Below, piece by piece: positions 1-45,508 of a DNA stretch of 64,000 bases. Both the position numbers and the translations under genes were made by a program. Within the stretch, counting starts at the first letter, position 1; every line of letters begins with the position of its first letter. Below the pieces are notes generated by a model. That model searched no databases. It saw only the letters and a program-made list of their open reading frames with translations, and was not told the DNA's origin. The stretch is taken from contig JACRCW010000065.1 in the NCBI GenBank assembly GCA_016218805.1, forward strand, positions 1 through 64,000, read 5' to 3'. This stretch comes from Deltaproteobacteria bacterium. GTDB taxonomy: Bacteria > Myxococcota > JACRCW01.

Positions 1-127
1 ACGTCGCTGCGCTGCGCTCCGTCGTCGAGGGCCGCCCCCCAAGGGGGGCGGGTACGCATGCACGCAGAGCGTGCATGCAGTTCGGTCGGGGCATTCGTGG
101 AACAGATGCCGGCTCAGACTTGGATCC

Positions 128-166
128 GCCGCGGAAATGCCGGTTCAAGTCCGGCTGGTCACCCCA
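128..166 (+). pseudogene. Orphan 3' half of a tRNA-His-like gene (5' half not found in window)
   Basis: T arm GCCGG-TTCAAGT-CCGGC, AAAT variable loop, acceptor 3' strand TGGTCAC, C73 discriminator and CCA; no complementary 5' acceptor strand or D arm in 1-127. Confidence 0.6.
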
Positions 167-179
167 GTTTTGTCGTCGT

Positions 180-252
180 GGTCCCGAACGCCCCTGGTGG
201 GGCGGCCATCCTGTCACGGTGGTGAGGGCGGGTTCGAATCCCCCCGGGATCG
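180..252 (+). tRNA. tRNA-Asp(GTC)
   Basis: Acceptor GGTCCCG/CGGGATC+G73; anticodon arm CCATC-CTGTCAC-GGTGG; TTCGAAT T loop. Confidence 0.9.
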
Positions 253-256
253 TGAT

Positions 257-329
257 GGGTCGCGAGCCGGTCTGGTGATGGCAACCGGTTGAAGCCCGGT
301 CCAACCTGGTTCGATTCCAGGGCGTCCCA
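257..329 (+). tRNA. tRNA-Phe(GAA)
   Basis: Acceptor GGGTCGC/GCGTCCC+A; anticodon arm ACCGG-TTGAAGC-CCGGT; T arm CCTGG-TTCGATT-CCAGG. Confidence 0.88.
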
Positions 330-336
330 TGTTTCC

Positions 337-407
337 GGGCCTGCAGCTCCATGGTGGAGCATCCGCCCTGCAAGCGGAAGGCGAGGGTTCGATTCCCTCC
401 GGGTCCA
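337..407 (+). tRNA. tRNA-Ala(TGC), C33 variant
   Basis: Acceptor GGGCCTG/CGGGTCC+A with G3:U70 Ala determinant; anticodon arm TCCGC-CCTGCAA-GCGGA. Confidence 0.88.
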
Positions 408-446
408 ATTCACGTGGTTTACGGCGTCGGCACGCACGGGTGGGTT

Positions 447-503
447 GCCTCCCCCCATGTTGGGGGGAGGCCGGCCGATGCGGAGCATCGGCCGGGTGGG
501 GGG
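447..503. repeat. REP-like double-hairpin dispersed repeat, copy 1
   Basis: GCCTCCCCCC-loop-GGGGGGAGG then CGGCCGATGC-GGA-GCATCGGCCG-GGTGGGGGG; similar copies at 10223 and 13041. Confidence 0.85.
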
Positions 504-535
504 AGGCGCCAGCGCGCCGGCCCACGCATGTTCAC

Positions 536-610
536 GCCCGCGAGGCTCAACAGACGAGCGCCCGGCTCCGAACCGGGAGGGTGCAGGTGCAAGTCCTGCC
601 GCGGGTACCA
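536..610 (+). tRNA. tRNA-Arg(CCG)
   Basis: Acceptor GCCCGCG/CGCGGGT+A+CCA; anticodon arm CCCGG-CTCCGAA-CCGGG; atypical T loop TGCAAGT. Confidence 0.88.
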
Positions 611-614
611 GCGA

Positions 615-687
615 TCTCCCGTCGTTCAACGGACGAGGACACCGGGCGGCGAACCCGGAAATGGAGGTTCGATTCCTCCCGGGAGGA
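615..687 (+). tRNA. tRNA-Arg(GCG), G33 variant
   Basis: Acceptor TCTCCCG/CGGGAGG+A; anticodon arm CCGGG-CGGCGAA-CCCGG; T arm GGAGG-TTCGATT-CCTCC. Confidence 0.78.
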
Positions 688-699
688 ACTTGTTGTTGA

Positions 700-770
700 C
701 GCGGGTTGGTCCGGCGATCCGGTGGGCCTCATACACCCAACCGAGCGTGGTTCGACTCCACGACCCGCCA
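700..770 (+). tRNA. tRNA-Met(CAT), initiator-like, degenerate D arm
   Basis: Starts CGCGGG with 1:72 mismatch (C:C); anticodon arm TGGGC-CTCATAC-ACCCA; T arm CGTGG-TTCGACT-CCACG. Confidence 0.72.
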
Positions 771-789
771 ATTCAATTCGGCGATATTC

Positions 790-862
790 GCCGGGCGTGC
801 CGCCTGGGGGCGGCTCCGGTGTCACATACCGGCTCGGCAGGGTTCGATCCCCTGGCCCGGCA
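790..862 (+). tRNA. tRNA-Val(CAC)
   Basis: Acceptor GCCGGGC/GCCCGGC+A; anticodon arm CCGGT-GTCACAT-ACCGG; T arm CAGGG-TTCGATC-CCCTG. Confidence 0.85.
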
Positions 863-877
863 TTTCACGCAACATGT

Positions 878-956
878 CCACTGGTAGCCCAACCCTGGTA
901 GAGGCAGCGGTCTCAGAAGCCGTCCAGTGAGGGTTCGAATCCCTCCCGGTGGACCA
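878..956 (+). tRNA. tRNA-Leu(CAG), short variable loop
   Basis: Acceptor CCACTGG/CCGGTGG+A+CCA; anticodon arm GCGGT-CTCAGAA-GCCGT; 5-nt variable loop CCAGT. Confidence 0.85.
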
Positions 957-964
957 TCTTTCAC

Positions 965-1041
965 GTCGTCGTAGCCCAACGTCCGGTAGAGGCAGCAGGT
1001 CGAGAGCCTGCGCAGTGGGGGTTCGACTCCCCCCGGCGACA
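965..1041 (+). tRNA. tRNA-Leu(GAG), short variable loop, C33
   Basis: Acceptor GTCGTCG/CGGCGAC+A; anticodon arm GCAGG-TCGAGAG-CCTGC; variable loop GCAGT. Confidence 0.83.
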
Positions 1042-1046
1042 ACCGT

Positions 1047-1119
1047 GCCCCGGTAGCCCAACGGCAGAGGCAGCAGGCTCAAGTCCTGCACAGTGGGGGT
1101 TCAAATCCCTCGCGGGGCA
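1047..1119 (+). tRNA. tRNA-Leu(CAA), short variable loop
   Basis: Acceptor GCCCCGG/GCGGGGC+A (7:66 mismatch); anticodon arm GCAGG-CTCAAGT-CCTGC; variable loop ACAGT. Confidence 0.83.
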
Positions 1120-1163
1120 AATCAACCCATTTCGCACGCAAGTGCGGGAAAGGAGTCCGCGCC

Positions 1164-1730
1164 ATGTTCGCGGAGACGCTTGTGTTGGATCCCGGGTGGA
1201 CCCCGGTAGCCCGCATCAACTGGCAGCGGGCCGTGACGTTGCTGTGGGAAGGCAAGGTGGAGGTGATTGAAGAATACGAAGACCGCGTGGTGCGGAGCAT
1301 GACGCTAGAGATCCAGGTTCCCTCGGTGATCCGGTTCCTGCGCGGGCACATCGGCCGGAAGCGGGCCATCCGGTTCTCGCGGCAGAACGTGTTTGTACGT
1401 GACGGTGGCCGTTGCCAGTACTGCCGCGCGCGGGTGGCGCGGCCGGAGGCCACGTATGACCACGTGGTGCCGCGCGTGATGGGCGGCCGCACGTGCTGGG
1501 AGAACGTGGTGATTGCCTGCATGGCGTGCAACCAGCGCAAGGGTGGGCGCACGCCGGTGCAGGCGCGGATGCGCCTGGGCACCCTGCCGGTGAAGCCGGA
1601 CCGGTTGCCGGGAGGTCCGTCGTATTTCCTGACGTTCCAGCGCGGGATGCCGGAGAGCTGGCGCGCCTACCTGCGGGATGCGGTGGCGTCGCTGCACTAC
1701 TGGAATGACGAGCTGGAGCAGGATGCCTGA
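1164..1730 (+). CDS. HNH endonuclease (McrA/HNH_5-like)
   Basis: RDGGRCQYC...TYDHVVPRVMGGRTCWENVVIACMACNQRKG motif; AAGGAG RBS. Confidence 0.92.
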   Translation: MFAETLVLDPGWTPVARINWQRAVTLLWEGKVEVIEEYEDRVVRSMTLEIQVPSVIRFLRGHIGRKRAIRFSRQNVFVRDGGRCQYCRARVARPEATYDHVVPRVMGGRTCWENVVIACMACNQRKGGRTPVQARMRLGTLPVKPDRLPGGPSYFLTFQRGMPESWRAYLRDAVASLHYWNDELEQDA

Positions 1731-1770
1731 CGCAGTGTGAAACGCGCGGTGACATCGTCGCTGCGCGCCT

Positions 1771-1858
1771 GGAGGGTGTGCACGGCGGGGTCGCCGGCGC
1801 CGCCTCGAAAGCGGCGGGGCCGGGTTACCGGTCCGGGGTTCGAGTCCTCCGCCCTCCT
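1771..1858 (+). tRNA. tRNA-Ser(CGA)
   Basis: Acceptor GGAGGGT/GCCCTCC; anticodon arm GCCGC-CTCGAAA-GCGGC; long variable arm; TTCGAGT T loop. Confidence 0.8.
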
Positions 1859-1874
1859 TTTGAAGTACCTACGC

Positions 1875-1959
1875 GGATGGTGAACGGCGTTGGACGCCGG
1901 CCCGGCTGGAACCCGGGTGGACCCCTGGTGGGTCCGGGGTTCGATTCCTCCACCATCCG
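1875..1959 (+). tRNA. tRNA-Ser(GGA)
   Basis: Acceptor GGATGGT/ACCATCC+G; anticodon arm CCCGG-CTGGAAC-CCGGG; long variable arm GGACCC/GGGTCC. Confidence 0.87.
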
Positions 1960-1962
1960 TCG

Positions 1963-2051
1963 TCGAGGCGCCGGGAGGCGTTCCTTCGTAAGGGACGAAG
2001 ACGGATGGGCCGCGAGCCCGTCACCGTCAACGCTTTCCAACCGATCCTCGA
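1963..2051 (+). ncRNA. Candidate second Y RNA (no tRNA-like domain)
   Basis: Terminal stem TCGAGG/CCTCGA, internal loop, helix GGGAGGCGTT/AACGCTTTCC closing two hairpins; termini match those of the YrlA at 2178. Confidence 0.6.
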
Positions 2052-2080
2052 TAGCACCGCGGCGAATCACTGCCGCACCT

Positions 2081-2167
2081 GGAGAGCACACCGGGCGAGG
2101 CGCCCGGCCGGTCCGCTAAACCGTGAGGCCCGCACGCGGGTCGGGGGTTCGATTCCCCGGTTCTCCG
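2081..2167 (+). tRNA. tRNA-Ser(GCT), C33
   Basis: Acceptor GGAGAGC/GTTCTCC+G; anticodon loop CCGCTAA; long variable arm GGCCCGC/GCGGGTC; TTCGATT T loop. Confidence 0.82.
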
Positions 2168-2177
2168 TTCCACGCCA

Positions 2178-2314
2178 TTCCGAGGCGAAGACCAGGGTTC
2201 CTTCGGCTGATACCCCGTAGGTCGCGGGTTCGAATCCCGTCGGGTGCAGCGATGCGCCCGTAGCTCAGTCCGGCAGAGCAACGCACGGTCCCAGGTCATT
2301 CACCATCCTCGGAT
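2178..2314 (+). ncRNA. yrlA: YrlA-type bacterial Y RNA (tRNA mimic)
   Basis: Terminal stem TCCGAGG/CCTCGGA with GGCGAAG (GNCGAAN0-1G motif); permuted tRNA domain: T arm GCGGG-TTCGAAT-CCCGT, closed acceptor CGGGTGCA-GCGA-TGCGCCCG, D arm TAGCTCAG..AGAGC; directly upstream of TROVE gene. Confidence 0.88.
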
Positions 2315-2360
2315 TTCATCGTCGTCACGGCCCTTCCGGTTCTTACGCGCGAGGTGCGTC

Positions 2361-3881
2361 ATGTCCCGCAAGGCACTGGCAATGTTCGGCGCATCGGCAC
2401 GCTCGGTGTCCGCGCCCATCCGCAACCATGACGGTTACCCGGCCTGGGAGCGCCCGTTGGAGGAGCGCTACCTGCAGGCGCTGCTGTGCAACACGCTGGG
2501 GAACACGTTCTATGCATCCGCGTCCAACCTGCTGGCGGAGACACGTGCTGTGCACGCGGAGATGATGCTGGGGGACACGGCGTTTGCCGCCAAGGCAATC
2601 ATGTACGCGCGCATGCGCGGACTGATGCGCACGCAGCCGGTGTACGGGCTCGCGTCGCTGGCCGGCACGGACCTGGCGCGGTTCCGCGAGGCGTTTGACC
2701 GCGTGGTGCTGACGCCGGCGGACCTGGCGGACTTCACGACGATGGTGAAGGCCCAACGGCGCGGGGAGGGCGGCCGCGCGATCAAGTCCATCGCCGGGCG
2801 GCGGCTGCTGCGTCTGGATGAATACCGGGTGATCAAGTACGGCGCGGAGCGCGCGGACGGCGGGTACGCGCTGCGGGACCTGTTCCGCGTGCACCACCCG
2901 CGCGCGGGGCGCCGGTTGCCGCTGGTGGACTACCTGCTGGGCCGCGCGGATGCGGCGGCGCTGGCGGCTTTGCCGCAAATACGCGCGCTGGAGGACCTCA
3001 AGCGCGCGACTACGGACGAGGCGAAGGTTGAGGCGATCACGCGCGGGCGCCTGCCGGTCGAGGTGGCGTCGTCGTTCGCGGGATCCTCGCGCGCGGTGTG
3101 GAGCGCGATTGTGCCGCAGCTGCCGATGCTGGCGCTGGTGCGTCACCTGGCCACGCTGGAGCGTCACGGCGTTCTCGACGAGCACCGGGCGTTGCTGGAG
3201 TCGCGCTTCGGGGATGCGCGCGCGGTGCAGCGCAGCCGGGTGCTGCCGTTCCGGTTCCTGGAGGCGTCGCGGCACGTGAAGAGCGCGTGGGCGCGGGACG
3301 CGTTGCGGGACGCGTTGGAGCACGCGTTTGGCGCGGTGCCGTCGCTGCACGGACGGACGGTGGTGTGCCTGGACCGGTCCGGCTCCATGGGCGCGTACAT
3401 CCAGCAAGCGGCCATCTTTGCACTGTGCGCGTTGAAGAAGGCGCGCGGTGATGGGCGGCTGTTGCTGTTTGACGACCGCCTGGACGAGTTGGCGCTGTCA
3501 CTGCGTGACTCCGTGCTCTCCCAGGCGGAGTCCATCCGGGTGCGCGGTGGCACCAACCACACGCTCGCCGTGGATGAGCTGCTGCGCACGCGGGAGCGCG
3601 TGGACTCGCTGGTGTACGTGACGGATGAGCAGCAGAACACGGGCTCGCCGCTGCTGGACCGGTTGGACGTGTACCGGCGGAAGGTGAACGCAGACGTGAA
3701 GGTGTTCATCGTGAACGTGGCGCCGTACGTGCAGTCGGTGGCGCCGCCGCACGAGAAGAAGACGTTCCACGTGTTCGGCTGGTCGGACGCAGTGTTGTCC
3801 TTCCTGGCCATGGCGAGCCGCGGTTTCGGTTCGCTGGTGGACGTGGTGCGCTCCGGCGCGTGGGACGTGGAGGTGAATTGA
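2361..3881 (+). CDS. rsr: Ro60/TROVE domain RNA-binding protein with C-terminal vWA domain
   Basis: TROVE hallmarks (LGNTFYAS, VIKY, LRDLFRVHHPR, LPMLALVRHL, VLPFRFL) and MIDAS DRSGSM; ATG 2361 with GAGGT RBS, preferred over the track start 2244 which lies inside YrlA. Confidence 0.92.
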   Translation: MSRKALAMFGASARSVSAPIRNHDGYPAWERPLEERYLQALLCNTLGNTFYASASNLLAETRAVHAEMMLGDTAFAAKAIMYARMRGLMRTQPVYGLASLAGTDLARFREAFDRVVLTPADLADFTTMVKAQRRGEGGRAIKSIAGRRLLRLDEYRVIKYGAERADGGYALRDLFRVHHPRAGRRLPLVDYLLGRADAAALAALPQIRALEDLKRATTDEAKVEAITRGRLPVEVASSFAGSSRAVWSAIVPQLPMLALVRHLATLERHGVLDEHRALLESRFGDARAVQRSRVLPFRFLEASRHVKSAWARDALRDALEHAFGAVPSLHGRTVVCLDRSGSMGAYIQQAAIFALCALKKARGDGRLLLFDDRLDELALSLRDSVLSQAESIRVRGGTNHTLAVDELLRTRERVDSLVYVTDEQQNTGSPLLDRLDVYRRKVNADVKVFIVNVAPYVQSVAPPHEKKTFHVFGWSDAVLSFLAMASRGFGSLVDVVRSGAWDVEVN

Positions 3882-3892
3882 CTGAATTGACG

Positions 3893-3971
3893 TCCTGGGA
3901 GGGCGAGGCTTCTGCCGAGCCTGGTGAAGACGGGTTGCCGCAGGGCTCGCCGGAGGCTCGCCCTCCCAGGA
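3893..3971. repeat. Long imperfect inverted repeat (REP-like/bidirectional terminator) between convergent genes
   Basis: TCCTGGGAGGGCGAGGCTTCTGCCGAGCC ... GGCTCGCCGGAGGCTCGCCCTCCCAGGA. Confidence 0.75.
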
Positions 3972-3985
3972 TCTCCGCGGTGGGG

Positions 3986-5791
3986 TCACGCCAGGCGGCT
4001 GAAGCGGCGGTCACTCTCCGGGAAGTCCACGCCCAGCGCTGCACTCACCAGCACGCCCAGCAGCCCCGCCACCACAAGCCCGTGCCCGTCCCAGTTGGGG
4101 AACGCGGGTGCCGCGGGCCCCGGCACGCACGTCATCAACGCACCGCCCACCACCGTGCCGATGGCGACCCACTGGTACAAGCGCAGGCCGCGGTACTCGG
4201 GCGTCTGCGGCTCGCCGCGCAGTGATTCCTCCACGAACCGTCCGATGCCGGTCATCACCAGGTAGATACCGCAAAGAAACGGCAGCGGGACATGCAGGGA
4301 CCACAGCCGCGCCACGACAAGAAACACGGGTGCGTTCCACAGGATGCTGTACAGCGGTGTTGCGTGGATGGGCACGCCACCCAGCGCGGACAGCCGCACC
4401 ACCCGGGACCGCGGGTGCGTGCAGCGGATGCCCAGCTGTGCCGGCGCTGCGCGGCCGTGACAACAGCCCTGCACCAGGCAGCGGACCCGGCCCCACGCCT
4501 GCACCAGGGGCGCACCGACGGCGTAGGCGCCCAGGATCATCCAGCCGTTGGTCCCCCACAGCGGCGCGGTCACCGCGCCGATCATGATCCCCAGCACGCC
4601 GCCGTAGAAGCCGTACGGCCGCATGAGCTGGTGGCTGCCCTCAATGATCTGCGCCCACGCGCCGGCGGTGAACAGGCCACAGCACGCGGCCCACGCAATG
4701 GCGGGCGCGTGCTCCACGCCCAGCAGCGCGTGCGCGAGCGCAACGGTGAGGAACGTGCCGATGCCGGCGTACGCGCCGTGGTTGATGATCCGCACCGGCC
4801 CAAACCGCCATTCGTGCCAGCTGTTGGCGACGCGCTCCGTGGTGGCGCGTAACAACTCCCAAACGGATGGGTAGCGGATGATGGCCGCGCCCACCGCCAC
4901 GCCTGCGAGAATGTCCGCGACGGTGTGCATCCCCGTGAGCGAGCAAGCCGCGGCGACCGCGGCGGCCCACGCCCACGCGAGCCACGCGAACGCACGCGGG
5001 AGGGCGGCGGCGCAGAGCATGGCCCAGACGACGTGGAAGGACGGGAACGCGGCGGCGGGGCTGTCCCACGCGCGCTCCATGGCAAGCAACCCGCCCAGCG
5101 GATCATTGACGTTGAACGGGCGCGGGACCGCGCAGACGGGGAGCGCGAGGTGCAGGGGAAACACCACTGCCATGGCAATCCACCCACGGAGTTGGAACGC
5201 GCGCAGGTCGCCGCGGGTCCGCACCAGCCACGGGGTTGCCAGCGCGACGACGTACGCGCTCGCGTACACGGGTTCCGCCCACGCGAACACGGGCCACGCG
5301 GCTTCGCCCGGGAGCGCAAGCATCACGGCGTCCGGCGCAGGGCCCAGCGCAACGATGAGTTCATACGCGGCCAGCCACGGCAGCAATACGTTGATCCACA
5401 TGGCGGCGCGCTCCCTGGCGGCCAGCGGCGCGGCACCGGGCGCAAGCGGTGCCAACAGCGGTGCGGCGGGCAGCGGGAGGCGCCCGCGTTCCCATCCCCA
5501 CACCAGCGCGGCCGACGCGGCAGCGAGCACGGGCGTGACCAGGTAGAGCCCCGCGCTGGACCGCGCCAGGATGCTGCCTCCGCCGACGAGAAACACCGCA
5601 CCGGCATGGAGCGGATGAGCCACTGCGCCGGGGCGCAGCGCCCACAGCAACGCGCCGGCAATCACCGCAACGGCGCCGGCCGCATCGGGCAGCGGGATGG
5701 GCAGGTGGACCACGCCGGGGACCGCCAGTGCCCAGGCCGCGCACCCGGCCACGGACAGCGCGGACAGCAGGAGCGTGCGCATCACGGCCAT
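3986..5791 (-). CDS. PAP2-family phosphatase / Lgt-like fusion membrane protein
   Basis: FPSFHV and GMHTVAD PAP2 motifs; C-terminal GRVRCLVQGCCHG, HATPLY, RFVEESLR Lgt motifs; start coupled to upstream stop (5791 or 5782). Confidence 0.8.
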   Translation of the reverse strand: MAVMRTLLLSALSVAGCAAWALAVPGVVHLPIPLPDAAGAVAVIAGALLWALRPGAVAHPLHAGAVFLVGGGSILARSSAGLYLVTPVLAAASAALVWGWERGRLPLPAAPLLAPLAPGAAPLAARERAAMWINVLLPWLAAYELIVALGPAPDAVMLALPGEAAWPVFAWAEPVYASAYVVALATPWLVRTRGDLRAFQLRGWIAMAVVFPLHLALPVCAVPRPFNVNDPLGGLLAMERAWDSPAAAFPSFHVVWAMLCAAALPRAFAWLAWAWAAAVAAACSLTGMHTVADILAGVAVGAAIIRYPSVWELLRATTERVANSWHEWRFGPVRIINHGAYAGIGTFLTVALAHALLGVEHAPAIAWAACCGLFTAGAWAQIIEGSHQLMRPYGFYGGVLGIMIGAVTAPLWGTNGWMILGAYAVGAPLVQAWGRVRCLVQGCCHGRAAPAQLGIRCTHPRSRVVRLSALGGVPIHATPLYSILWNAPVFLVVARLWSLHVPLPFLCGIYLVMTGIGRFVEESLRGEPQTPEYRGLRLYQWVAIGTVVGGALMTCVPGPAAPAFPNWDGHGLVVAGLLGVLVSAALGVDFPESDRRFSRLA

Positions 5792-6564
5792 CGGACCACC
5801 TCGTGAATGGTCCAGCCGTGGGACTCCGCCTTTCCCGCCCGCTGCAGCCGCGAGCGCGAGAGCCACTTGGTCTCGTCAATGAGCAGGGTCCGACCGGGTA
5901 AGATCTGCAAAACGCGCCGGGGCAGCAGCGACAGCGCAGAGAAGCCGAGCTGTCCCTGGCGCAACAACTCGGTCAAATCAAAACGGAGGTTGACGGTGGG
6001 CGACGCGATCCCTCCTTCGTTCACGGTCGCATCGGCGACCTCCACGCCGTCCAGCAACACGGTGCGGAAAGTGTGCGGACCGCGCCAGTCAATCCATGTG
6101 AGACACGCGTCCGCCGAGACAAAGCGTCCCCACCACAGCTCGCGGATGGGCAGGGACCACGGCGGCGCGGTGAGCGTGAGGACCTCGGCGTAGCCATGGC
6201 CGGTCAGCGTGGTGGCGCCGTCAACCAGTGTGGCGCGCGCGCCGGGAGCAAGGCAGTTCCAGCGGATGCATCCGTGCGCGTCGTCAAGGACGGTGCGTTC
6301 CACCGGCGGCGCGGTGGCGGCCCACGTGCCGCGCGTGTCCAGCGCGCGGCTGTGCCAGTGGAGCGTGTCGTCGTGCTGGTGCGGCTCGGTGGGAGCGCGG
6401 AATCGCGTGCGCGTGGTGGTGGGCAATCCCGGAGAATGCCGCAGCAGGCTCTGGTAGCCCACGCGAACAGCGCCGATGGTGAGCTGCGCCGCGTAGATGA
6501 TCGCCGCGTCTCCCCCGTCGGTCACGATGTCGAGGTACCACTTGCGCAGGAAGAACCGGGTCAC
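5782..6564 (-). CDS. Hypothetical protein (lipocalin/tocopherol-cyclase-like)
   Basis: LRKWYLD N-terminus, GHGYAEVL..LWWGRF; start estimated at GTG 6564. Confidence 0.6.
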   Translation of the reverse strand: MTRFFLRKWYLDIVTDGGDAAIIYAAQLTIGAVRVGYQSLLRHSPGLPTTTRTRFRAPTEPHQHDDTLHWHSRALDTRGTWAATAPPVERTVLDDAHGCIRWNCLAPGARATLVDGATTLTGHGYAEVLTLTAPPWSLPIRELWWGRFVSADACLTWIDWRGPHTFRTVLLDGVEVADATVNEGGIASPTVNLRFDLTELLRQGQLGFSALSLLPRRVLQILPGRTLLIDETKWLSRSRLQRAGKAESHGWTIHEVVRWP

Positions 6565-6622: not shown

Positions 6623-8677
6623 TCACGCGTCCACGGGCTTGCGCGCCACCTTGAACAGGACCGCGCCCATGAACGCAAAGCACAGCACACCCAGGAACTG
6701 GAAGCCGCCGTCCCCCAGTGCGCTGACCAGCGCATGCTCCACGGACACCTTGCCAATGATCTCCGCGACGCCGGGATTCACCGACAGGATGGCGACGACA
6801 ACGCCGGCGATGGCGCCGCCCGCGACGAGTCCCGTGGCGAACAGGTTTCCGGGGCCCAGTTCACTCTCGTCCACCTTTTCACCCTTGCGCTGCGCCATGT
6901 AGTCCGCGAGGCCCTTGATGGCGCCGCCGACGAAGATGGGTGCGGTGGTGGACAGCGGCAGGTACGCGCCCACGGCGAAAGACAGCGCCTTCACGCCGCA
7001 CAGCTCCATGGTGATGGCCAGGAACACGCCGACGAGCACGAACTGCCAGTCAAGGTTGAAGGACAGCAGGCCCTTGATGAGGGTGGCCATGAGCGTGCCC
7101 TGCGGGGCGGGGAGCTTTTCGCTGCCAATCATGTGCAGCACGCCCTGCGCGGCCAGGTCCGGCGGCGGGGTATCCAGCGCATTGAGCGTGAGACCAATGA
7201 CGCCCGCCGCCGCCACCGCGCCGATCATCAGGCCGATCTGCTGCGCGCGCGGCGTGGCGCCGACGAGGTAGCCGGTCTTGAGGTCCTGGCTGGTGGCGCC
7301 GGCATTGGCGGCGGCAATGCACACCATCCCGCCCACGCACAGCGCCATGGGCTGGTAGATGTCCCCGGTCCAACCGATGCCGACGAAGATGAGGCAGGTG
7401 GCCATCAACGTGGCGATGGTCATGCCGGAGATGGGGTTGGACGAACTGCCGATGATGCCGACGATGCGCGAGGCCACGGTGACAAAGAAGAACCCGAACA
7501 CGACGATGAGGATGCCGAGTACGAAGCGCCCGCCGATGCTGCCGGGGAGGAACGGGAGCAGCGCCAGGATGACCACCAGGCCCGCGCTGCCGGCGAGCAC
7601 CACGGTGATGGGGAGGTCGTCTTCGGTGCGCTTGCGGGCGGCGTTGCCCACACCCTCCTTGAGCGACGCCACACTGTCCTTGAACGACGACACGATGGTG
7701 GGCAGCGTCTTGAGCAGGGTCATGAACCCGCCGGCGGCCACCGCGCCCGCGCCGATTTGACGTACGTACGCGAAGTACACCGCGTTGGCGGTGCTGGCGA
7801 ACGAGTGCGTGGCGGGGTCCCAGCCGCCCTTGCCGCCGGCCAGCGCCACGTCTTTGAGGTAGCCCAGCTTGACCAGCTGCAGGGCAATGGCGTCGGGCGG
7901 GACCAGGGAGGCCAGCAGCGGGATGATGCCCAGCCACGCCAGCACGCCGCCGGCAACCAGCACGCCGGCAATGCGCGGCCCGATGATGTACCCGACACCG
8001 AGGTACTCCGGCGTGATCTCACCGTTGAGCGTGGCCGACGGGAAGTAACGGTTGGTCTGCGCGGTCACCAGCGCGGGCGCCTCGGCGATGAACTTCACGA
8101 TCTTCTGCAGGATGGCGTACATGAACGCGAACCCGACGCCCTGGTAGGCCGTGCGTGCCAGGCTGCCGCCCTTCTCACCGGCGATGAGCACGGACGCGCA
8201 CGCGGTGCCTTCGGGGTAGGGCAGGTTGGCGTGCTCCTTGACGATGAGCGAGCGCCGCAGCGGGATCATCATCAGCGTGCCGAGGATGCCGCCCAGCAGG
8301 GCCAGCGTGAAGATGGTCCAGTAGGAGAAGTAACCGGGCCCGCCGCTGCCGGGGGACAGCAGCAGGAACCCGGGCAGCGTGAACACCACGCCCGCGGCAA
8401 TGGACTCGCCCGCGGACCCAATGGTCTGCACGATGTTGTTCTCCAGGATGGTGGACCCGCCCAGCCGCTTGAGCAGCGAGATGGCCAGCACCGCGATGGG
8501 GATGGACGCGGACACGGTGAGGCCGGCCTTCAGCGCCAGGTACACGGTGGCGGCGCCGAAGATGATGCCGAACACCACGCCGATCACGATCGCCTTGGGC
8601 GTGAACTCGGCGACATCGGTGCGTTCCGCGGGGATGTAGGGCTGGAATTCCGGCGTGGCCGGCGTCTGCTCGGACAT
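6623..8677 (-). CDS. OPT family oligopeptide transporter
   Basis: YLALKAGLTVSASIP, ENNIVQT, LPYPEG, SSNPISG, QDLKTG, APQ motifs; ATG with GGAGG RBS. Confidence 0.95.
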   Translation of the reverse strand: MSEQTPATPEFQPYIPAERTDVAEFTPKAIVIGVVFGIIFGAATVYLALKAGLTVSASIPIAVLAISLLKRLGGSTILENNIVQTIGSAGESIAAGVVFTLPGFLLLSPGSGGPGYFSYWTIFTLALLGGILGTLMMIPLRRSLIVKEHANLPYPEGTACASVLIAGEKGGSLARTAYQGVGFAFMYAILQKIVKFIAEAPALVTAQTNRYFPSATLNGEITPEYLGVGYIIGPRIAGVLVAGGVLAWLGIIPLLASLVPPDAIALQLVKLGYLKDVALAGGKGGWDPATHSFASTANAVYFAYVRQIGAGAVAAGGFMTLLKTLPTIVSSFKDSVASLKEGVGNAARKRTEDDLPITVVLAGSAGLVVILALLPFLPGSIGGRFVLGILIVVFGFFFVTVASRIVGIIGSSSNPISGMTIATLMATCLIFVGIGWTGDIYQPMALCVGGMVCIAAANAGATSQDLKTGYLVGATPRAQQIGLMIGAVAAAGVIGLTLNALDTPPPDLAAQGVLHMIGSEKLPAPQGTLMATLIKGLLSFNLDWQFVLVGVFLAITMELCGVKALSFAVGAYLPLSTTAPIFVGGAIKGLADYMAQRKGEKVDESELGPGNLFATGLVAGGAIAGVVVAILSVNPGVAEIIGKVSVEHALVSALGDGGFQFLGVLCFAFMGAVLFKVARKPVDA

Positions 8678-8863
8678 GGTTCCTCCGTCGAGGGCGGCGC
8701 ACCATGGCAGAGGGTTTGGGCCGCTGTCCACGGCGCGGCAAAGGCCGACCTTCCGGTTGGCGGCGGGGGCGTGGCGGCGGCGGCCCCGTCCCGCTAAGGG
8801 GGCACTGGCCCGAGGCGGAAGGGTGGTTATCCTTCCGGGGAAACCCCAGGGCGCAGGAGTCGC

Positions 8864-10210
8864 ATGATCCGGTTCAAGCTCGCTGGCATCCCGGTGGCCA
8901 TGCACTGGACCTTCTTTCTGTTCGCGGCGCTGATCGGCGCGGCGGGCCGGGAGGACGGCGTGCGCATGGCGGCGTGGGTGGTGGTGGTGTTCGTGAGCGT
9001 GCTGCTGCACGAACTCGGGCACGCGTTTGCGTGGCGCGCGTATGGCCACCAGCCGTCCATTGAACTGCAGGGGCTGGGCGGGGCGACGCGTGGTGACCCG
9101 GACCGGCCGCTGCCGCCCGGCAAGCAGGCGTTGGTGGCGCTTGCCGGACCGGTGACGGGGTTGCTGCTGGCGGCGGTGGCCTTTGTGGTGGGGCAGCTGC
9201 TGGTCATCCCGCGTGAGTCCTTGGGCGCGCGCGTGCTGTACGAGTTGTGGTGGGCCAACACGGTGTGGAGCGTTTTCAACCTGCTGCCGGTGATCCCGCT
9301 TGACGGCGGCATCATCGTCGCGTCGCTGGAACGGCGGGTGCGCGGGGGACGCCCGCCGCGGGCGGCGTTCTACCTGTCGGTCGCCGTGGGCGCCGGGCTC
9401 GCGCTGTACTTCGCCACGGTGCAACAGTGGATCGCGGTGCTGCTGCTGGCGTCGTACGCGTACCAGGCGTTCCAGACGTTGCGCGCGCTGTCCCGCGTGG
9501 AGGCGGATGCGCCGCACCCCGCGCTGGCGGCGGCGATGGTTGCGCTCAAGGAGGACCGGTTGGATGACGCGCGCGCGGCGGCGCAGCTGGCGTTGATGGG
9601 CGCCAAGAAGGACGTGGAACTGAACGTGGCGCTGCACATCATTGCGTCGGTGCACACGCGGCAGGGGCGTCCGGATGATGCGTTGAACATCCTGCTGAGC
9701 ATGCCGCGCGGCCTGAAGGCCAGCCCGTTGGCGCTGGGTGAGGCGTGGACGACCAAGGGCGAGCACCTCAAGGCGAGCACGTTCTTCCGCGACGCGTTCC
9801 GCGACGCGCCGGTGCGGGAGACGGCGTACCGCTATGCGCGGTCGCTGCTGGACGCGGGGCTGGACAATGAGATGCGGGAGTTGCTGACGTCACAGGCGTC
9901 GCTGGGATACTCGGACGAAACGTGCGCAGGCTTGCAGGATGCGCTGTATGAGCGGGGCAAGTTTGAGGAGTCCTCGCGCGTGGGGGCGCACCGGCACCAG
10001 AAGTTTGGATCAGCGGCGGCGGCGTACAACGCGGCGTGTGCGCTGGTGAAGCTGGGCCGCAACGACGACGCGATGAAGTGGCTGACGGCGGCGGCGGACA
10101 AGGGATTCCGGGACGTGAAGCACCTGGACGAGGACCCGGACCTGGCGCCGCTGCGGGGTTCCGCGGCGTTCGACGCATTGCGACAGCGCCTGGTCACCGC
10201 GCCCGCGTAG
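8864..10210 (+). CDS. Site-2 protease (M50) with C-terminal TPR region
   Basis: HELGH, AGP, NLLPVIPLDGG; YNAACA...DPDLAPLR TPR end. Confidence 0.92.
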   Translation: MIRFKLAGIPVAMHWTFFLFAALIGAAGREDGVRMAAWVVVVFVSVLLHELGHAFAWRAYGHQPSIELQGLGGATRGDPDRPLPPGKQALVALAGPVTGLLLAAVAFVVGQLLVIPRESLGARVLYELWWANTVWSVFNLLPVIPLDGGIIVASLERRVRGGRPPRAAFYLSVAVGAGLALYFATVQQWIAVLLLASYAYQAFQTLRALSRVEADAPHPALAAAMVALKEDRLDDARAAAQLALMGAKKDVELNVALHIIASVHTRQGRPDDALNILLSMPRGLKASPLALGEAWTTKGEHLKASTFFRDAFRDAPVRETAYRYARSLLDAGLDNEMRELLTSQASLGYSDETCAGLQDALYERGKFEESSRVGAHRHQKFGSAAAAYNAACALVKLGRNDDAMKWLTAAADKGFRDVKHLDEDPDLAPLRGSAAFDALRQRLVTAPA

Positions 10211-16347: not shown

Positions 16348-17156
16348 CCGCGTACTTCCGCGCCCACCCTGACGGGACCTTCCACCCGTCCGAGGCCACG
16401 CGCGGGCCCTGGGATGACCGTTTTCAGCACGGCGGCCCGCCCTCGGCGCTGCTGGCGCGGGCGGTGGAGCACGCGTTGTCTGACCGCCCCGGCCTGGCCG
16501 TGGCGCGCCTCACCGTGGAGATGCTGCGCCCCGTGCCGCTGCTGCCGCTGCGCGTGGAGGCGGCGGTGTCCGCGGGCGGCTCGCGCAGCGTGCGGGTGGA
16601 CGCCGTCCTGCGCGCCGCGGCGGACGGGACGGAGCTGTTCCGCGCGCGCGCATTGTGCCTGCGGTCGGTGGCGCTGGCGGTCCCCGCGGTGGAGACCGGT
16701 GTGGTTGCCCCGCCACCGCCCGCGCACAGTGCACCGTTTGAGTTCCCGTTCTTCCGCTGCGCGGAGGGCTACCACCGCTCCGTGGAGATCCGCATGGCGC
16801 GGGGCACGTTCGGCGCGGGCCCGGTGGCGGCGTGGATGCGGCTGCGTGGTCCCGTGGTGGCAGGCGAAGCGCCCACGCCGCTGCAGCGGCTGGTGGCGCT
16901 GGCGGACTCGGGCAACGGTGTGTCGGTGGTGCTGGACCTGGCGCGTTGGACGTTTGTGAACCCGGACCTGACCGTGCACCTGCTCCGGATGCCCGTGGGG
17001 GAATGGATCTGCCTGGAGGCCACCACGCTCCCGGGCCCGGGGGGCATCGGCATTGCGGACACGCGTTTTCACGACGAGCGCGGCGTGCTGGGCCGCGGCG
17101 TGCAGACGCTGTTTATTGACGAGCGGCGCGAGCATCCCAACGCAATGAAGGCGTGA
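16344..17156 (+). CDS. Thioesterase family protein (double hotdog)
   Basis: GPWDDRFQHGGPP, ALADSGNG, FVNPDLTVHL; GTGA overlap with upstream stop. Confidence 0.88.
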   Translation: MTAYFRAHPDGTFHPSEATRGPWDDRFQHGGPPSALLARAVEHALSDRPGLAVARLTVEMLRPVPLLPLRVEAAVSAGGSRSVRVDAVLRAAADGTELFRARALCLRSVALAVPAVETGVVAPPPPAHSAPFEFPFFRCAEGYHRSVEIRMARGTFGAGPVAAWMRLRGPVVAGEAPTPLQRLVALADSGNGVSVVLDLARWTFVNPDLTVHLLRMPVGEWICLEATTLPGPGGIGIADTRFHDERGVLGRGVQTLFIDERREHPNAMKA

Positions 17157-43373: not shown

Positions 43374-45094
43374 GGCGACGCCTCCTCGTCCTTGGGGGCC
43401 GGTGGCGGGGTCACGCCGGGCAGCGGACCCTGCGGCGCCACGGGTGTGAGGGGGGCGGCGGGCGCGTTGCGGCGCGCGGCGACCAGCCCACGCGCCTCCA
43501 CCACCAGGCTGGGGCGCTGCACCTCCAGCAATGACACCAGCTCCGCCACGTCATCCGCGAGCGGGGATCCCTTCTCAAACGCCATCATCAGCGCCGCCAC
43601 CTCCGCCGCGTCCAGGGCGCGCGGGTCGGGACGGCGGGAGGCGGCCGTCAGCGCGTCGCGCGGTTCGGTCCGCGCGCGCTGCGCGGCTGCGCCGGCCAGC
43701 AGCGGGGATTCATCACAGCCGCGGCCGCCTGCGCCGCGCGCATGCTTGACGACGAGCGGCAGCACGTCATGCAGCCGCGGGGCCAAGCCCACGCGCCACT
43801 CTGCGCGCGCGGCCACCAGGCCGGCCAGCGCCTTGAGCTGCCACCCTCGGCGGCCCTCCTTCCCCGCCGCCTCCGCCCGCGCGACGACGTCGCGGTAGAT
43901 CTCGGCGTCGTCAGGCGCGTCCGCCAGGTAGGCCAGCGCGGCAAGCAGTGCGAGCTCCGGGGCGCGGTCCTGCGCGCCGCGCAGGAAGGCGCGGATCTCC
44001 TCGGCGCCCCCCGAGCGGCGGGCGACGCCGTTGGCGTGGTGCAGCCGCTCATCCATCCGGCGCGCGCGCCCGCCGTGGAGGTCCCAGGCCACGGACACCG
44101 GCGTGGCGTTGCACAACGACGTCGCCTCGAAGAACGACATCAGTGCGCCGCTGCACAGCCACTCGAGATCCGCGTCGGTATCCAGGTCCCGGAAGGCGCA
44201 GTCCACGGTGGTGACCTCGTGCTCGGTCTCGCGGGACGCCACGGTGGCCACGGGGGACCACCCCGCGCTGCCGCGCACCAGCCACGCCACCACGCGCTGC
44301 CGTTCCGGTCCCCAGCCCGCCACCAGCTCCGGCGCCCCGTCTCCGGTGACGTCCGCCACCAGCAGCACCGCGGCGCCGCGCGCCGGGTCCCGGCAGGCGT
44401 CCACGCCCGCATCCGCCTCCGGGGCCTTGCCGCACTCAGGCAACGCGGCCGGGATGGTCTCCACCGGCTCGCCAGCGGGCGACAGCACGCGGATGGATCC
44501 GTCCTTGAGCCCGCCCACGTACGCCCGCACCCCGTCGGGCCCGGTCCACAGCCACGCGTCCAGTTCGCGCGCCTCGGCGCGCGCCAGCGCTTCCAGCGCC
44601 GCACCCAGCCTGGGCGGCACGGCGCGGCTGCGCGGCGCCTCCTGCGCCACGTACGGCGCCTCACCCTCCGGCACCGGGCCCAGCACCGCGCGCACCTTCG
44701 GCTCCCCCACCAGCGCGGGGGCGCGCGCTTCCAGCAGGTCCTTGCGCGGCCATTCGCCCAGCGTGACGCGGAACCAGATCCCGCGCGCGCCCAGATCCAC
44801 CCGCACCACGCGCGCGGCGTGGCCCAGTTTCTCCAGCGCGCCGGCCAGCGCTTCCGCCTCCCGCGGGTCCGGGGTGGCCTTCACCTGCGCCACCCAGACG
44901 CGTGCGGGGGACAGCACCACGCCGGTGAGCTTCTCCTCGCCGGCGGGGGGCACCACGACGACGGCGGCGTCCGCCCGGACGGCGCTCCCGGCATCCGGCG
45001 TCACCGCCGCACGCGGACAGGCCGCACACGCCAGGGCCGCCACCAACCTCGCCAGTCCGCTCGTCGTCCGCACCCGGGTTCCCTCGCCCGCCAC
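43370..45094 (-). CDS. SPOR-domain putative lipoprotein
   Basis: WVAQVKA..EAEALAGALEKLG..GIWFRVTLG SPOR-like segment; start uncertain. Confidence 0.65.
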   Translation of the reverse strand: MAGEGTRVRTTSGLARLVAALACAACPRAAVTPDAGSAVRADAAVVVVPPAGEEKLTGVVLSPARVWVAQVKATPDPREAEALAGALEKLGHAARVVRVDLGARGIWFRVTLGEWPRKDLLEARAPALVGEPKVRAVLGPVPEGEAPYVAQEAPRSRAVPPRLGAALEALARAEARELDAWLWTGPDGVRAYVGGLKDGSIRVLSPAGEPVETIPAALPECGKAPEADAGVDACRDPARGAAVLLVADVTGDGAPELVAGWGPERQRVVAWLVRGSAGWSPVATVASRETEHEVTTVDCAFRDLDTDADLEWLCSGALMSFFEATSLCNATPVSVAWDLHGGRARRMDERLHHANGVARRSGGAEEIRAFLRGAQDRAPELALLAALAYLADAPDDAEIYRDVVARAEAAGKEGRRGWQLKALAGLVAARAEWRVGLAPRLHDVLPLVVKHARGAGGRGCDESPLLAGAAAQRARTEPRDALTAASRRPDPRALDAAEVAALMMAFEKGSPLADDVAELVSLLEVQRPSLVVEARGLVAARRNAPAAPLTPVAPQGPLPGVTPPPAPKDEEASP

Positions 45095-45223
45095 CGTCGG
45101 CGGGCGGGCACCCTACCCAACAAGTCCCGCCCGGGCACAGGGCCGCCGGGGTTGACGCAGCGCGCTACCGCGCGGCAGCCTGCCCGGCGTCGCCCGGCGT
45201 GTTCCCGGGCAGCGAGGGAGACC

Positions 45224-45508
45224 ATGGCCGGGGTGAAGCAGAAGTTGCGTGACGAGGGCCTGAAGCTGGGGATGAAGGCCATGAGCAAGCTCATGGAGGA
45301 CCCGGACCGCGCGCAGAAGCTGATGACGGCGGTGCAGAAGGTCCAGGACGGCAAGCAGAGCCTGGATGAGACCACGGCGCGCCTGCGCAACACCGCGGGC
45401 CTCCCCAGCCGGGAGGACTTCAAGACCATGGGCAAGCGCGTGGGCAAGCTGCGCCGCGACGTGCGCAAGCTGGCCAGCCAGCTGGACGGCGTGCTGCAGA
45501 CGCTGTGA
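45224..45508 (+). CDS. Small coiled-coil (phasin-like) hypothetical protein
   Basis: GGGAG RBS; AGLPSREDF..LRRDVRKL. Confidence 0.7.
   Translation: MAGVKQKLRDEGLKLGMKAMSKLMEDPDRAQKLMTAVQKVQDGKQSLDETTARLRNTAGLPSREDFKTMGKRVGKLRRDVRKLASQLDGVLQTL

What the first reader, a model, noticed from the sequence alone, without database searches (positions are those of the whole stretch)
128..3881. tRNA array + HNH nuclease + two Y RNAs + Ro60 in one co-oriented locus
Seen: 13 tRNA genes plus a His-type 3' half, tightly spaced on the + strand and grouped by amino acid (Arg-Arg, Leu x3, Ser x3). An HNH gene, two Y-like RNAs and a TROVE/vWA gene follow on the same strand with no obvious terminator between them. 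Known: bacterial Ro60 (Rsr) binds Y RNAs, works with PNPase and is often linked to RtcB RNA repair; tRNA arrays with HNH genes are known from mobile elements. Inference: a single stress- or phage-inducible unit that supplies a replacement set of variant tRNAs together with the Ro/Y machinery for damaged RNA.
Basis: partly seen in the sequence, partly recalled or inferred. Interest (0 to 1): 0.85.

Follow-up and report, generated by a model that had tools for sequence, protein, structure and literature searches.

The report
Ribosome-gated spare tRNA and Ro60 operon
This is the back half of a bacterium's spare set of tRNA genes, joined to an RNA-quality-control protein (Ro60) and its two partner RNAs; its front half, on another piece of the assembly, carries a small test gene and a switchable stop signal that probably turn the whole unit on only when ribosomes are struggling.

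Summary
In detail: 13 tRNA genes, a His 3' half, an intact HNH gene, two Y RNAs (both hit by a model built without them) and a Ro60 gene lie on one strand, with no internal promoter or terminator found. The window is only the 3' half. It starts in a multicopy repeat that splits tRNA-His. The end of contig C103 has a sigma-70-like promoter, a 52-codon leader ORF wired to a terminator/antiterminator, an rRNA-type boxA and the first tRNAs. A same-family genome has leader through His-Asp-Phe-Arg-Arg-Met on one contig, which supports the join. tRNA stems show purifying selection (54 of 62 changed pairs still pair), but two genes are broken by insertions. Best reading: a reserve-tRNA operon of the Anabaena trn (L-array) kind, with the same HNH family and V-arm-less Leu tRNAs, gated by whiB7-like ribosome-sensing attenuation instead of TrcR. 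A rare Ro60/Y RNA cassette is attached. tRNA arrays with HNH or TROVE genes are published; attenuator plus boxA control of such arrays was not found in my searches. No expression data. RtcB and PNPase are unlinked, and phage induction is unsupported.

The parts
1..133 (.). End of a multicopy MITE-like repeat (about 340 nt in full copies, inverted ends) inserted into tRNA-His; it is why the contig starts here
   Evidence: 15 alignments to its end in G000; depth about 40-fold the locus in run X1
134..165 (+). 3' half of tRNA-His (variable loop, T arm, acceptor strand, CCA)
   Evidence: 79% identical to the 3' half of His(GTG), which precedes Asp-Phe in G001's array
180..252 (+). tRNA-Asp(GTC), missed by ARAGORN
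   Evidence: cloverleaf fold; weak Rfam hit; 71% to G001 Asp with 4 two-sided stem changes
256..330 (+). tRNA-Phe(GAA)
337..407 (+). tRNA-Ala(TGC), G3:U70 kept, C33 instead of U33
441..527 (.). Copy of a second dispersed palindromic repeat in a 128-nt gap of the array
   Evidence: 34 blastn alignments in G000, self included
536..610 (+). tRNA-Arg(CCG)
615..687 (+). tRNA-Arg(GCG) with G33; the orthologue in G001 is Arg(ACG) with U33
700..770 (+). tRNA with CAT anticodon (Met/fMet/Ile2 not resolved)
790..862 (+). tRNA-Val(CAC), drawn by ARAGORN with 8 acceptor and 4 T-stem pairs
878..956 (+). tRNA-Leu(CAG) without the long variable arm
965..1041 (+). tRNA-Leu(GAG) without the long variable arm; C33 shared with 3 other arrays
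1046..1120 (+). tRNA-Leu(CAA) without the long variable arm
1164..1730 (+). HNH endonuclease, 188 aa, catalytic and zinc motifs intact; same family as the HNH beside the Anabaena trn operon
1771..1858 (+). tRNA-Ser(CGA), 8/4 acceptor/T-stem
1875..1959 (+). tRNA-Ser(GGA), 8/4 acceptor/T-stem
1961..2053 (+). Short Y RNA (YrlB-type): Ro-binding stalk without a tRNA-like module
   Evidence: 33.6 bits with a model built without it; fold z -2.45; no Rfam hit at E<=10 for a Y family
2080..2168 (+). tRNA-Ser(GCT), C33
2178..2314 (+). YrlA-type Y RNA: Ro-binding stalk plus permuted T-arm/acceptor/D-arm module
   Evidence: Rfam RF02553 43.2 bits, below gathering; 36.1 bits with R1
2361..3881 (+). Ro60/Rsr homologue, 506 aa (TROVE ring + vWA with DxSxS-T-D MIDAS motif)
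3893..3971 (.). Long hairpin (a third dispersed repeat) between Ro60 and a convergent gene; likely end of the unit
   Evidence: z -6.5; 58 alignments in G000, self included

Best explanation
The window holds the 3' half of a chromosomal reserve-translation operon. SHOWN: gene content, intact reading frames, tRNA and Y RNA structures under selection, and, on C103, a promoter-like site, leader ORF, terminator and boxA. INFERRED: (1) C103 and C19 are two ends of one array. (2) Transcription starts at the sigma-70-like promoter. A ribosome that reaches the stop of the 52-codon leader covers its last six codons, the terminator forms and the array stays silent. A ribosome that stalls earlier (antibiotic, starvation, tRNA cleavage) leaves those codons free to pair with the terminator's 5' arm, so RNA polymerase reads through. 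(3) An rRNA-type boxA recruits Nus factors, which carry the polymerase through several kb of structured non-coding RNA to HNH and Ro60. (4) RNase P and other tRNA-processing enzymes cut out the tRNAs and Y RNAs. The tRNAs top up or buffer the pool, as in Anabaena. Ro60 binds the two Y RNAs and, like Rsr, works with PNPase (encoded elsewhere) on damaged structured RNA. The HNH is a co-induced member of unknown substrate. In this genome the unit is reduced and partly damaged.
For: Join: G001 (same family) has the same promoter, leader, terminator and Trp-Thr-Gly...His-Asp-Phe...Arg-Arg-Met on one contig; 15 orthologous tRNA pairs from both G000 contigs are 70-87% identical to it; L006 holds leaders through Ro60 on one contig. 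Attenuator: C103 leader end pairs with the terminator arm at -24.8 kcal/mol, best of 41 upstream windows, 0 of 300 codon shuffles as strong; 0 of 37 ordinary G000 gene ends with terminators reach -23, median -10.5. Folding switches from antiterminator to terminator when the ORF end is blocked. The search found one such element in G000. G001's leader also has 52 codons with only its ends conserved. 13 of 14 hand-picked regions have leader plus terminator; in 8 of 13 the last 18 nt are the best partner. boxA: 17 of 19 letters match a relative's rRNA-leader boxA, the only site within 4 mismatches in G000. Selection: of 285 stem pairs in 14 tRNAs, 62 differ from G001; 54 still pair, 32 through changes on both sides. 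Y stalk covaries. The HNH is 38% identical to the one beside the Nostoc trn operon, which is co-induced with it by chloramphenicol (PMC8421152). Ro60 homologues sit beside RtcB, RlaP, Hen1-Pnkp and a CCA-adding-type gene.
Against: No expression data. The C103-C19 join is inferred, and the piece between them is not in the assembly. Two arrays (L213 with 6 tRNAs, L214 with 14) show no leader before their first tRNA, and L215 has lost the terminator. The leader set was picked by eye, kin are not independent, and 4 of 37 null gene ends reach -17.5, the level of several other leaders. In G001 the full-length free fold already contains the terminator; the antiterminator appears only in the nascent state. 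Decay: two tRNAs split by insertions; Ala, Arg(GCG) and Ser(GCT) lack U33 where 6 of 6, 2 of 2 and 7 of 7 same-anticodon genes in the other loci examined keep it. This Ro60 clade was found in only 1 of 401 phylum genomes and beside this HNH family in 3 of 178 Ro loci. The conserved head of both Y RNAs reads CGAGG, not the published CGAA.
Confidence: 0.62

Rival explanations
1. Silent relic: a once-regulated array that is now decaying in this lineage and no longer makes a useful full-length transcript.
For: IS-like insertion in one tRNA and a MITE-like insertion in His; a repeat in the Ala-Arg gap; three lineage-specific losses of U33; fewer genes than G001 between Phe and Arg.
Against: 54 of 62 changed stem pairs still pair; HNH and Ro60 frames and motifs are intact; leader, terminator and boxA are intact on C103; G001's array also carries repeats, so insertions are common in this family.
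Confidence: 0.2
2. Phage-conflict module: a phage-derived or anti-phage unit whose structurally odd tRNAs replace or shield tRNAs cut during infection, with the HNH spreading it as a homing endonuclease.
For: HNH homologues follow a short-arm tRNA-Leu in phages Mx1 and Rctr197k and in 13 of 15 array-bearing loci among the top 30 HNH hits. Ro60 homologues occur on 18 viral contigs, one with 33 tRNAs.
Against: No integrase or phage gene among the flanking ORFs scanned. 15 of the top 30 HNH loci have no tRNA within 1.5 kb, and some keep the upstream promoter-like motif without tRNAs, which fits a regulon member better than a homing gene. The Anabaena precedent is induction by translation inhibitors.
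Confidence: 0.1
3. Two adjacent units: the Ro60/Y RNA cassette landed at the end of the array but has its own (non-sigma-70) promoter and regulation.
For: The Ro clade is rare in the phylum while the array-HNH module is common. In the Bacillota loci scanned the same clade sits beside a divergent WYL regulator, and 139 of 178 Ro loci have fewer than 3 tRNAs.
Against: The short Y RNA lies between two Ser tRNA genes with gaps of 1 and 27 nt, and YrlA starts 9 nt after Ser(GCT), leaving no room for a promoter. The same interleaving recurs in L006, L085 and L087.
Confidence: 0.08

Closest known systems
L-array / trn operon of Anabaena (Nostoc) sp. PCC 7120 with its HNH gene (PMC8421152; TrcR control, PMC10272220)
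   Same: Long, non-periodic, co-oriented array of mostly redundant tRNAs; same HNH family (38%, E 4e-18); Leu tRNAs without the long variable arm (4 of 4 there).
   Different: Chromosomal here, not plasmid-borne. Control appears to be a leader attenuator plus boxA rather than the TrcR repressor. Ro60 and Y RNAs are embedded; neither paper's main text mentions Ro60 or TROVE.
Bacterial Rsr/Ro60 with YrlA and YrlB; D. radiodurans tRNA-Asp-Yrn2-Yrn1 precursor (PMC4201824)
   Same: Ro60 with one tRNA-like and one non-tRNA-like Y RNA within 0.5 kb upstream on the same strand; a precedent for a Y RNA co-transcribed with a tRNA.
   Different: Distant Ro60 clade (NCBIfam Rsr 54.5 bits against a 900 cut-off). 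The conserved head is CGAGG in a fully paired stalk, not GNCGAA. No linked rtcBA or RtcR. It sits in a whole tRNA array.
Archaeal tRNA gene clusters with TROVE genes (PMC6333295) and mycobacterial tRNA array units with HNH genes (PMC5966550)
   Same: tRNA cluster plus TROVE (20 of 29 archaeal clusters); tRNA array plus HNH.
   Different: Those surveys give gene content; the passages read name no Y RNAs or regulation.
whiB7/wblC uORF-mediated transcription attenuation (PMC10274678)
   Same: Many-codon leader ORF whose efficient translation favours an intrinsic terminator and whose stalling favours an antiterminator.
   Different: Here the gated product is a tRNA/Y RNA/Ro60 transcript, not a transcription factor; untested.
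(8/4) tRNA-Ser (PMC5389517)
   Same: Ser(CGA) and Ser(GGA) have an 8-bp acceptor and a 4-bp T stem.
   Different: None of note; a known type.

Membership tests
Long tRNA gene array (L-array) | Many co-oriented, closely spaced, non-periodic tRNA genes | tested here: met
   13 genes in the window plus 4 on C103, gaps mostly under 20 nt; at least 31 called in G001
Long tRNA gene array (L-array) | Supernumerary to a dispersed housekeeping set and of separate origin | tested here: met
   Housekeeping isoacceptors lie elsewhere; 12 array genes are 61-68% identical to them against 70-87% to G001's array. No other Asp was found, probably an assembly gap
Long tRNA gene array (L-array) | Patchy distribution or horizontal spread | tested here: inconclusive
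   Related modules in phages and plasmids, but orthologous between two genomes of the family and common in the phylum
Long tRNA gene array (L-array) | Silent normally, induced by translational stress, tRNAs aminoacylated | not testable with these tools
   No RNA run listed
Ro60/Rsr | TROVE ring followed by vWA with MIDAS | tested here: met
   Pfam, full-length alignment to 2NVO, D338/S340/S342/T398/D422 invariant in 50 homologues
Ro60/Rsr | NCBIfam Rsr equivalog cut-off | tested here: not met
   54.5 bits against 900: a homologue, not the Deinococcus-type equivalog
Ro60/Rsr | Binds Y RNA and forms RYPER with PNPase | not testable with these tools
   PNPase gene present on C87; binding untested
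YrlA (RF02553) | Permuted T-arm/acceptor/D-arm module, near Ro60 on the same strand | tested here: met
   Model positions 23-89 matched, E 2e-8; ends 46 nt before Ro60
YrlA (RF02553) | Rfam gathering score | tested here: not met
   43.2 against 69 bits
YrlA / YrlB | 5' GNCGAA(N)G Ro-binding motif | tested here: inconclusive
   The conserved head is a CGAGG variant in both RNAs and in most of 18 homologues; the long RNA has a literal match just downstream that is not conserved
Y RNA (general) | Long stem from the 5' and 3' ends carrying conserved bases | tested here: met
   Terminal helix 97% paired, 5 of 8 pairs with two-sided changes, above shuffled and slid controls
Ribosome-mediated transcription attenuator (whiB7 type) | Leader ORF with ribosome-binding site, intrinsic terminator, mutually exclusive antiterminator using the ORF end | tested here: met
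   On C103 and in G001; in silico only
Ribosome-mediated transcription attenuator (whiB7 type) | Read-through depends on leader translation | not testable with these tools
   needs a reporter or Term-seq
Homing endonuclease cassette | HNH cuts an element-free allele and moves with its neighbours | not testable with these tools
   Active-site motif intact; 15 of the top 30 orthologue loci have no tRNAs nearby
rsr-yrlBA-rtcBA RNA repair operon | Linked rtcB/rtcA under RtcR | tested here: not met
   Three rtcB genes on other contigs; none in the unit

The most novel reading that the evidence does not exclude
A reserve set of structurally divergent tRNAs (Leu without variable arm, 8/4 Ser), Y RNAs and Ro60 is made as one rRNA-like, boxA-antiterminated transcript that is switched on directly by ribosome stalling on a many-codon leader. 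This would be a feedback loop in which failure of decoding, including tRNA loss to toxins or phage nucleases, calls up nuclease-evading spare tRNAs together with the machinery that clears damaged RNA, without any protein regulator.
Probability: 0.35. Interest if true: 0.72.

Novelty: new variant of a known kind. Interest (0 to 1): 0.52.

Why it matters
Why many bacteria keep cryptic tRNA arrays, and what Ro60/Y RNA does outside Deinococcus and Salmonella, are open questions. Only one array (Anabaena) has a known trigger among the papers found. This locus ties both to a concrete, testable switch. The same leader stands before arrays in complete genomes of the phylum, so a reporter or Term-seq test in a cultured relative is straightforward. 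The parts are each known and this scan has met the combination before, which caps the surprise.

Tried and rejected
The search for related loci with the single Ro60 protein found nothing; the alignment worked. Relaxed ARAGORN on the genome gave 809 mostly false calls. A first boxA test with a strict pattern found only C103 and 0 of 4 relatives, with one hit for the reversed control. I had dropped the idea until the relatives' actual rRNA leaders showed the motif. The idea that the short Y RNA mimics rRNA was tested against a relative's 6-kb rRNA region and not supported (82 and 24 of 300 shuffles scored as well). Codon matching of the leader: C103's leader is codon-diverse (37 distinct of 51; coding background 24, p 0.001), but 8 of 13 leaders are not above background at p<0.05, so this is not a general rule. 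An empty-site test with the flanking genes in G001-G003 was uninformative. Contigs of runs X1-X4 did not show the missing middle piece or an uninterrupted His gene among the rows shown; only 28 letters bridge the repeat-His junction. No RNA holder listed, which is no evidence either way. The other Ro60 subfamily in the phylum (14 loci) had no tRNAs and only weak R1 scores. G001 shows no R1 hit and no Ro60 of this clade, but its array contig ends inside Ser(GCT). Two Ro60/Y RNA reviews (PMC10870794, PMC6047535) were not held and may already note tRNA clusters beside Ro60. No supplements were read; those of PMC8421152 (array lists, neighbourhoods) and PMC4201824 (YrlA tables) may bear on novelty. 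No structure or complex prediction was run.

Full report
WHAT IS THERE. The window is the first 64 kb of contig C19 of a 6.4-Mb, 70% GC draft genome, probably Myxococcota: the closest named HNH homologue is from a Myxococcota MAG (72%) and a Ro60 homologue at 55% is from a Polyangia MAG. ARAGORN finds 12 tRNAs at 256-2168, all on +. Asp(GTC) at 180-252 is a 13th. HNH is 1164-1730 and Ro60 2361-3881. Ro60 aligns with D. radiodurans Rsr along its length and keeps the MIDAS residues in 50 homologues. No promoter and no credible terminator lie in 1-4100. The unit ends at a repeat-derived hairpin facing a convergent gene. Overlapping contigs of one public run tile 106-4100; that run may be the source.

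THE TWO Y RNAs. Rfam YrlA matches the tRNA-like core at 2216-2287 below its gathering score. The RNA at 1961-2053 has no Y-family Rfam match. I collected 18 short RNAs beside Ro60 homologues, excluding the window. Their terminal stalk is 97% paired, with two-sided changes in 5 of 8 pairs, above both controls (the structure was drawn from the alignment, which favours it). The model ranks the two window RNAs first (36.1 and 33.6 bits, next 15.3) and finds only them in the genome. Over 94 sources it gave 139 hits, all on the Ro60 strand, in 53 of 69 Ro60 loci (my hand count; 11 of those loci gave training sequences) and none in 25 loci without Ro60. So there is one YrlA-type and one YrlB-type RNA, the pattern that PMC4201824 (parts 1-3 of 5 read) describes for three species. 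The conserved head is CGAGG rather than CGAA.

THE WINDOW IS HALF OF THE UNIT. Bases 1-133 end a multicopy repeat inserted in tRNA-His. Contig C103 ends with Trp, Thr(CGT), Gly(GCC), a TTG-anticodon tRNA and a tRNA 5' half cut at a TA by an IS-like end shared with two other contig ends. The same-family genome G001 carries, on one contig, the same promoter and leader followed by Trp-Thr-Gly ... His-Asp-Phe ... Arg-Arg-Met (24 genes called), and on another Val-Leu-Leu-Leu-HNH-Ser. Fifteen orthologous pairs drawn from both G000 contigs are 70-87% identical to G001, against 61-68% to G000's own housekeeping tRNAs. The Polyangia locus L006 runs from two tandem leaders through 13 called tRNAs, HNH, Ser, Ser and a Y RNA to Ro60 on one contig. 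The join is therefore likely but not shown. The roughly 1-kb middle piece is missing; the smallest contig is 2,225 nt.

THE SWITCH. Upstream of Trp on C103 are a TTGACG-17-TAACAA site, a 52-codon ORF with a ribosome-binding site (16782-16940), and 27 nt later a GC hairpin with a U-rich tail. The last 18 nt of the ORF pair with the hairpin's 5' arm at -24.8 kcal/mol, better than all 41 upstream windows and all 300 codon shuffles. None of 37 ordinary gene ends with terminators in this genome reaches -23. The free RNA folds as the antiterminator; blocking the ORF end gives the terminator. My genome-wide search found this arrangement once. G001's leader has the same length and ends and a different middle (-20.6, best of 41). 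Of 20 HNH loci fetched, 10 have leader plus terminator, 1 has lost the terminator, and 9 show no leader by eye, including two real arrays. This is the logic described for whiB7 (PMC10274678, passages). Inside the array on C103 a 19-mer matches a relative's rRNA-leader boxA at 17 positions. It is the only site within 4 mismatches in G000, whose own 16S rRNA gene was not found in the assembly; sites within 4 mismatches occur in 7 of the 30 other loci scanned, all of them arrays. That boxA recruits NusB/NusE for rRNA antitermination I take from search-listing abstracts.

THE tRNAs. The three Leu genes lack the long variable arm. The same holds in every array-HNH locus of this phylum in which a Leu was called, in phage Mx1 and in all four Leu genes of the Nostoc trn operon, where 23 of 26 tRNAs were charged in vivo (PMC8421152, passages and section 22). 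Two Ser genes are 8/4, a published type (PMC5389517 and PMC7609411, passages). Against G001, 62 of 285 stem pairs differ and 54 still pair, so structure has been under selection. Against that: two genes are split, several are gone, and Ala, Arg(GCG) and Ser(GCT) have lost U33 where homologues keep it.

DISTRIBUTION. An HNH profile matches 317 of 401 phylum genomes at E<=1e-30, in two score classes (the tally includes one genome flagged unpublished, of which nothing else was used). Of the top 30 loci, 15 have 2 or more tRNAs within 1.5 kb, and 13 of these have a Leu directly before the HNH. The HNH is 38% identical to the one before the Nostoc trn operon, which PMC8421152 found co-induced and PMC10272220 (passages) lists under TrcR. 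This Ro60 clade was found only in G000 among the 401. Among 178 loci of the clade (not dereplicated), 39 have 3 or more co-oriented tRNAs, 8 have 8 or more, and 3 carry this HNH. Of 123 neighbouring ORFs listed from 24 loci I scanned 83; hits included RtcB (2), RlaP (4), Hen1, Pnkp, HAD_SAK_2 and WYL/WCX (3). G000 has three rtcB genes and PNPase elsewhere.

WHAT IS KNOWN. Arrays with HNH genes (PMC5966550, passages), archaeal tRNA clusters with TROVE in 20 of 29 (PMC6333295, passages), a tRNA-Y RNA precursor in D. radiodurans (PMC4201824) and a phage Ro60 with two Y-like RNAs (PMC12135203, passages) are in print. Leader attenuation or boxA control of a tRNA array did not appear in the listings of four searches (PMC4007540 passages were irrelevant). 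The library lacks most subscription papers, and two relevant reviews were not held. Earlier notes of this scan report the same switch before arrays in other genomes, once with Ro60. I noted the leader before reading them; they are not independent proof.

VERDICT. Real, correctly described, and best read as an Anabaena-type reserve-tRNA operon with an added Ro60/Y RNA cassette, gated by ribosome-sensing attenuation, and somewhat eroded in this genome. New variant of a known kind; interest 0.52.

Noticed in passing
L001:16725-17702 (G000 C103 end): The 5' part of the array: promoter-like site, 52-codon leader, terminator, Trp, Thr, Gly, boxA at 17430, a TTG-anticodon tRNA whose positional orthologue in G001 has CTT, and a tRNA half cut by an IS-like element at a TA (same end on C52 and C121).
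   Followed up: yes
window 1-133; full copies e.g. G000 C17 near 44930-45270: MITE-like repeat of about 340 nt with inverted ends, about 40 times the locus depth in run X1; it lies at several contig ends.
   Followed up: partly
L215-L219, L226, L229, L232, just after the HNH stop; also L236 upstream of an rtcB of G000 (C72): A conserved structured-looking RNA with repeated CCAGAG motifs, with no Rfam match at E<=0.01 in L207 or L236. In G000 it precedes a small ORF that looks RbfA-like (recalled resemblance, not tested) and rtcB.
   Followed up: partly
L213, L214, L227, L228, after the HNH stop: A second conserved non-coding element, different from the CCAGAG one.
   Followed up: no
L213-L219, L222-L229, L232, upstream of the leader, array or HNH: A shared promoter-like motif TCAGG...CGTC (ECF-sigma-like by recollection), kept even where leader and tRNAs are absent; not seen on C103.
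   Followed up: no
L010, L021, L031, L047, L063 (Bacillota): The same Ro60 clade with 2-4 Y RNAs, small tRNA clusters in some, a divergent WYL/WCX regulator in three, and RlaP, Hen1-Pnkp, RtcB or a CCA-adding-type gene downstream.
   Followed up: partly
L174 (viral contig): Ro60 and five Y RNAs embedded in a block of 33 tRNA genes.
   Followed up: no
G000 whole genome: No housekeeping tRNA-Asp, no tRNA-Ile(GAT) and no 16S rRNA were found; probably assembly gaps, but the array's Asp is the only one seen.
   Followed up: partly
window 3986-5866 (-), 6623-8740 (-), 8864-10210 (+): Downstream neighbours: a PAP2 plus LGT-domain membrane protein, an OPT transporter and an M50 peptidase with TPR repeats; no sign of belonging to the unit.
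   Followed up: partly
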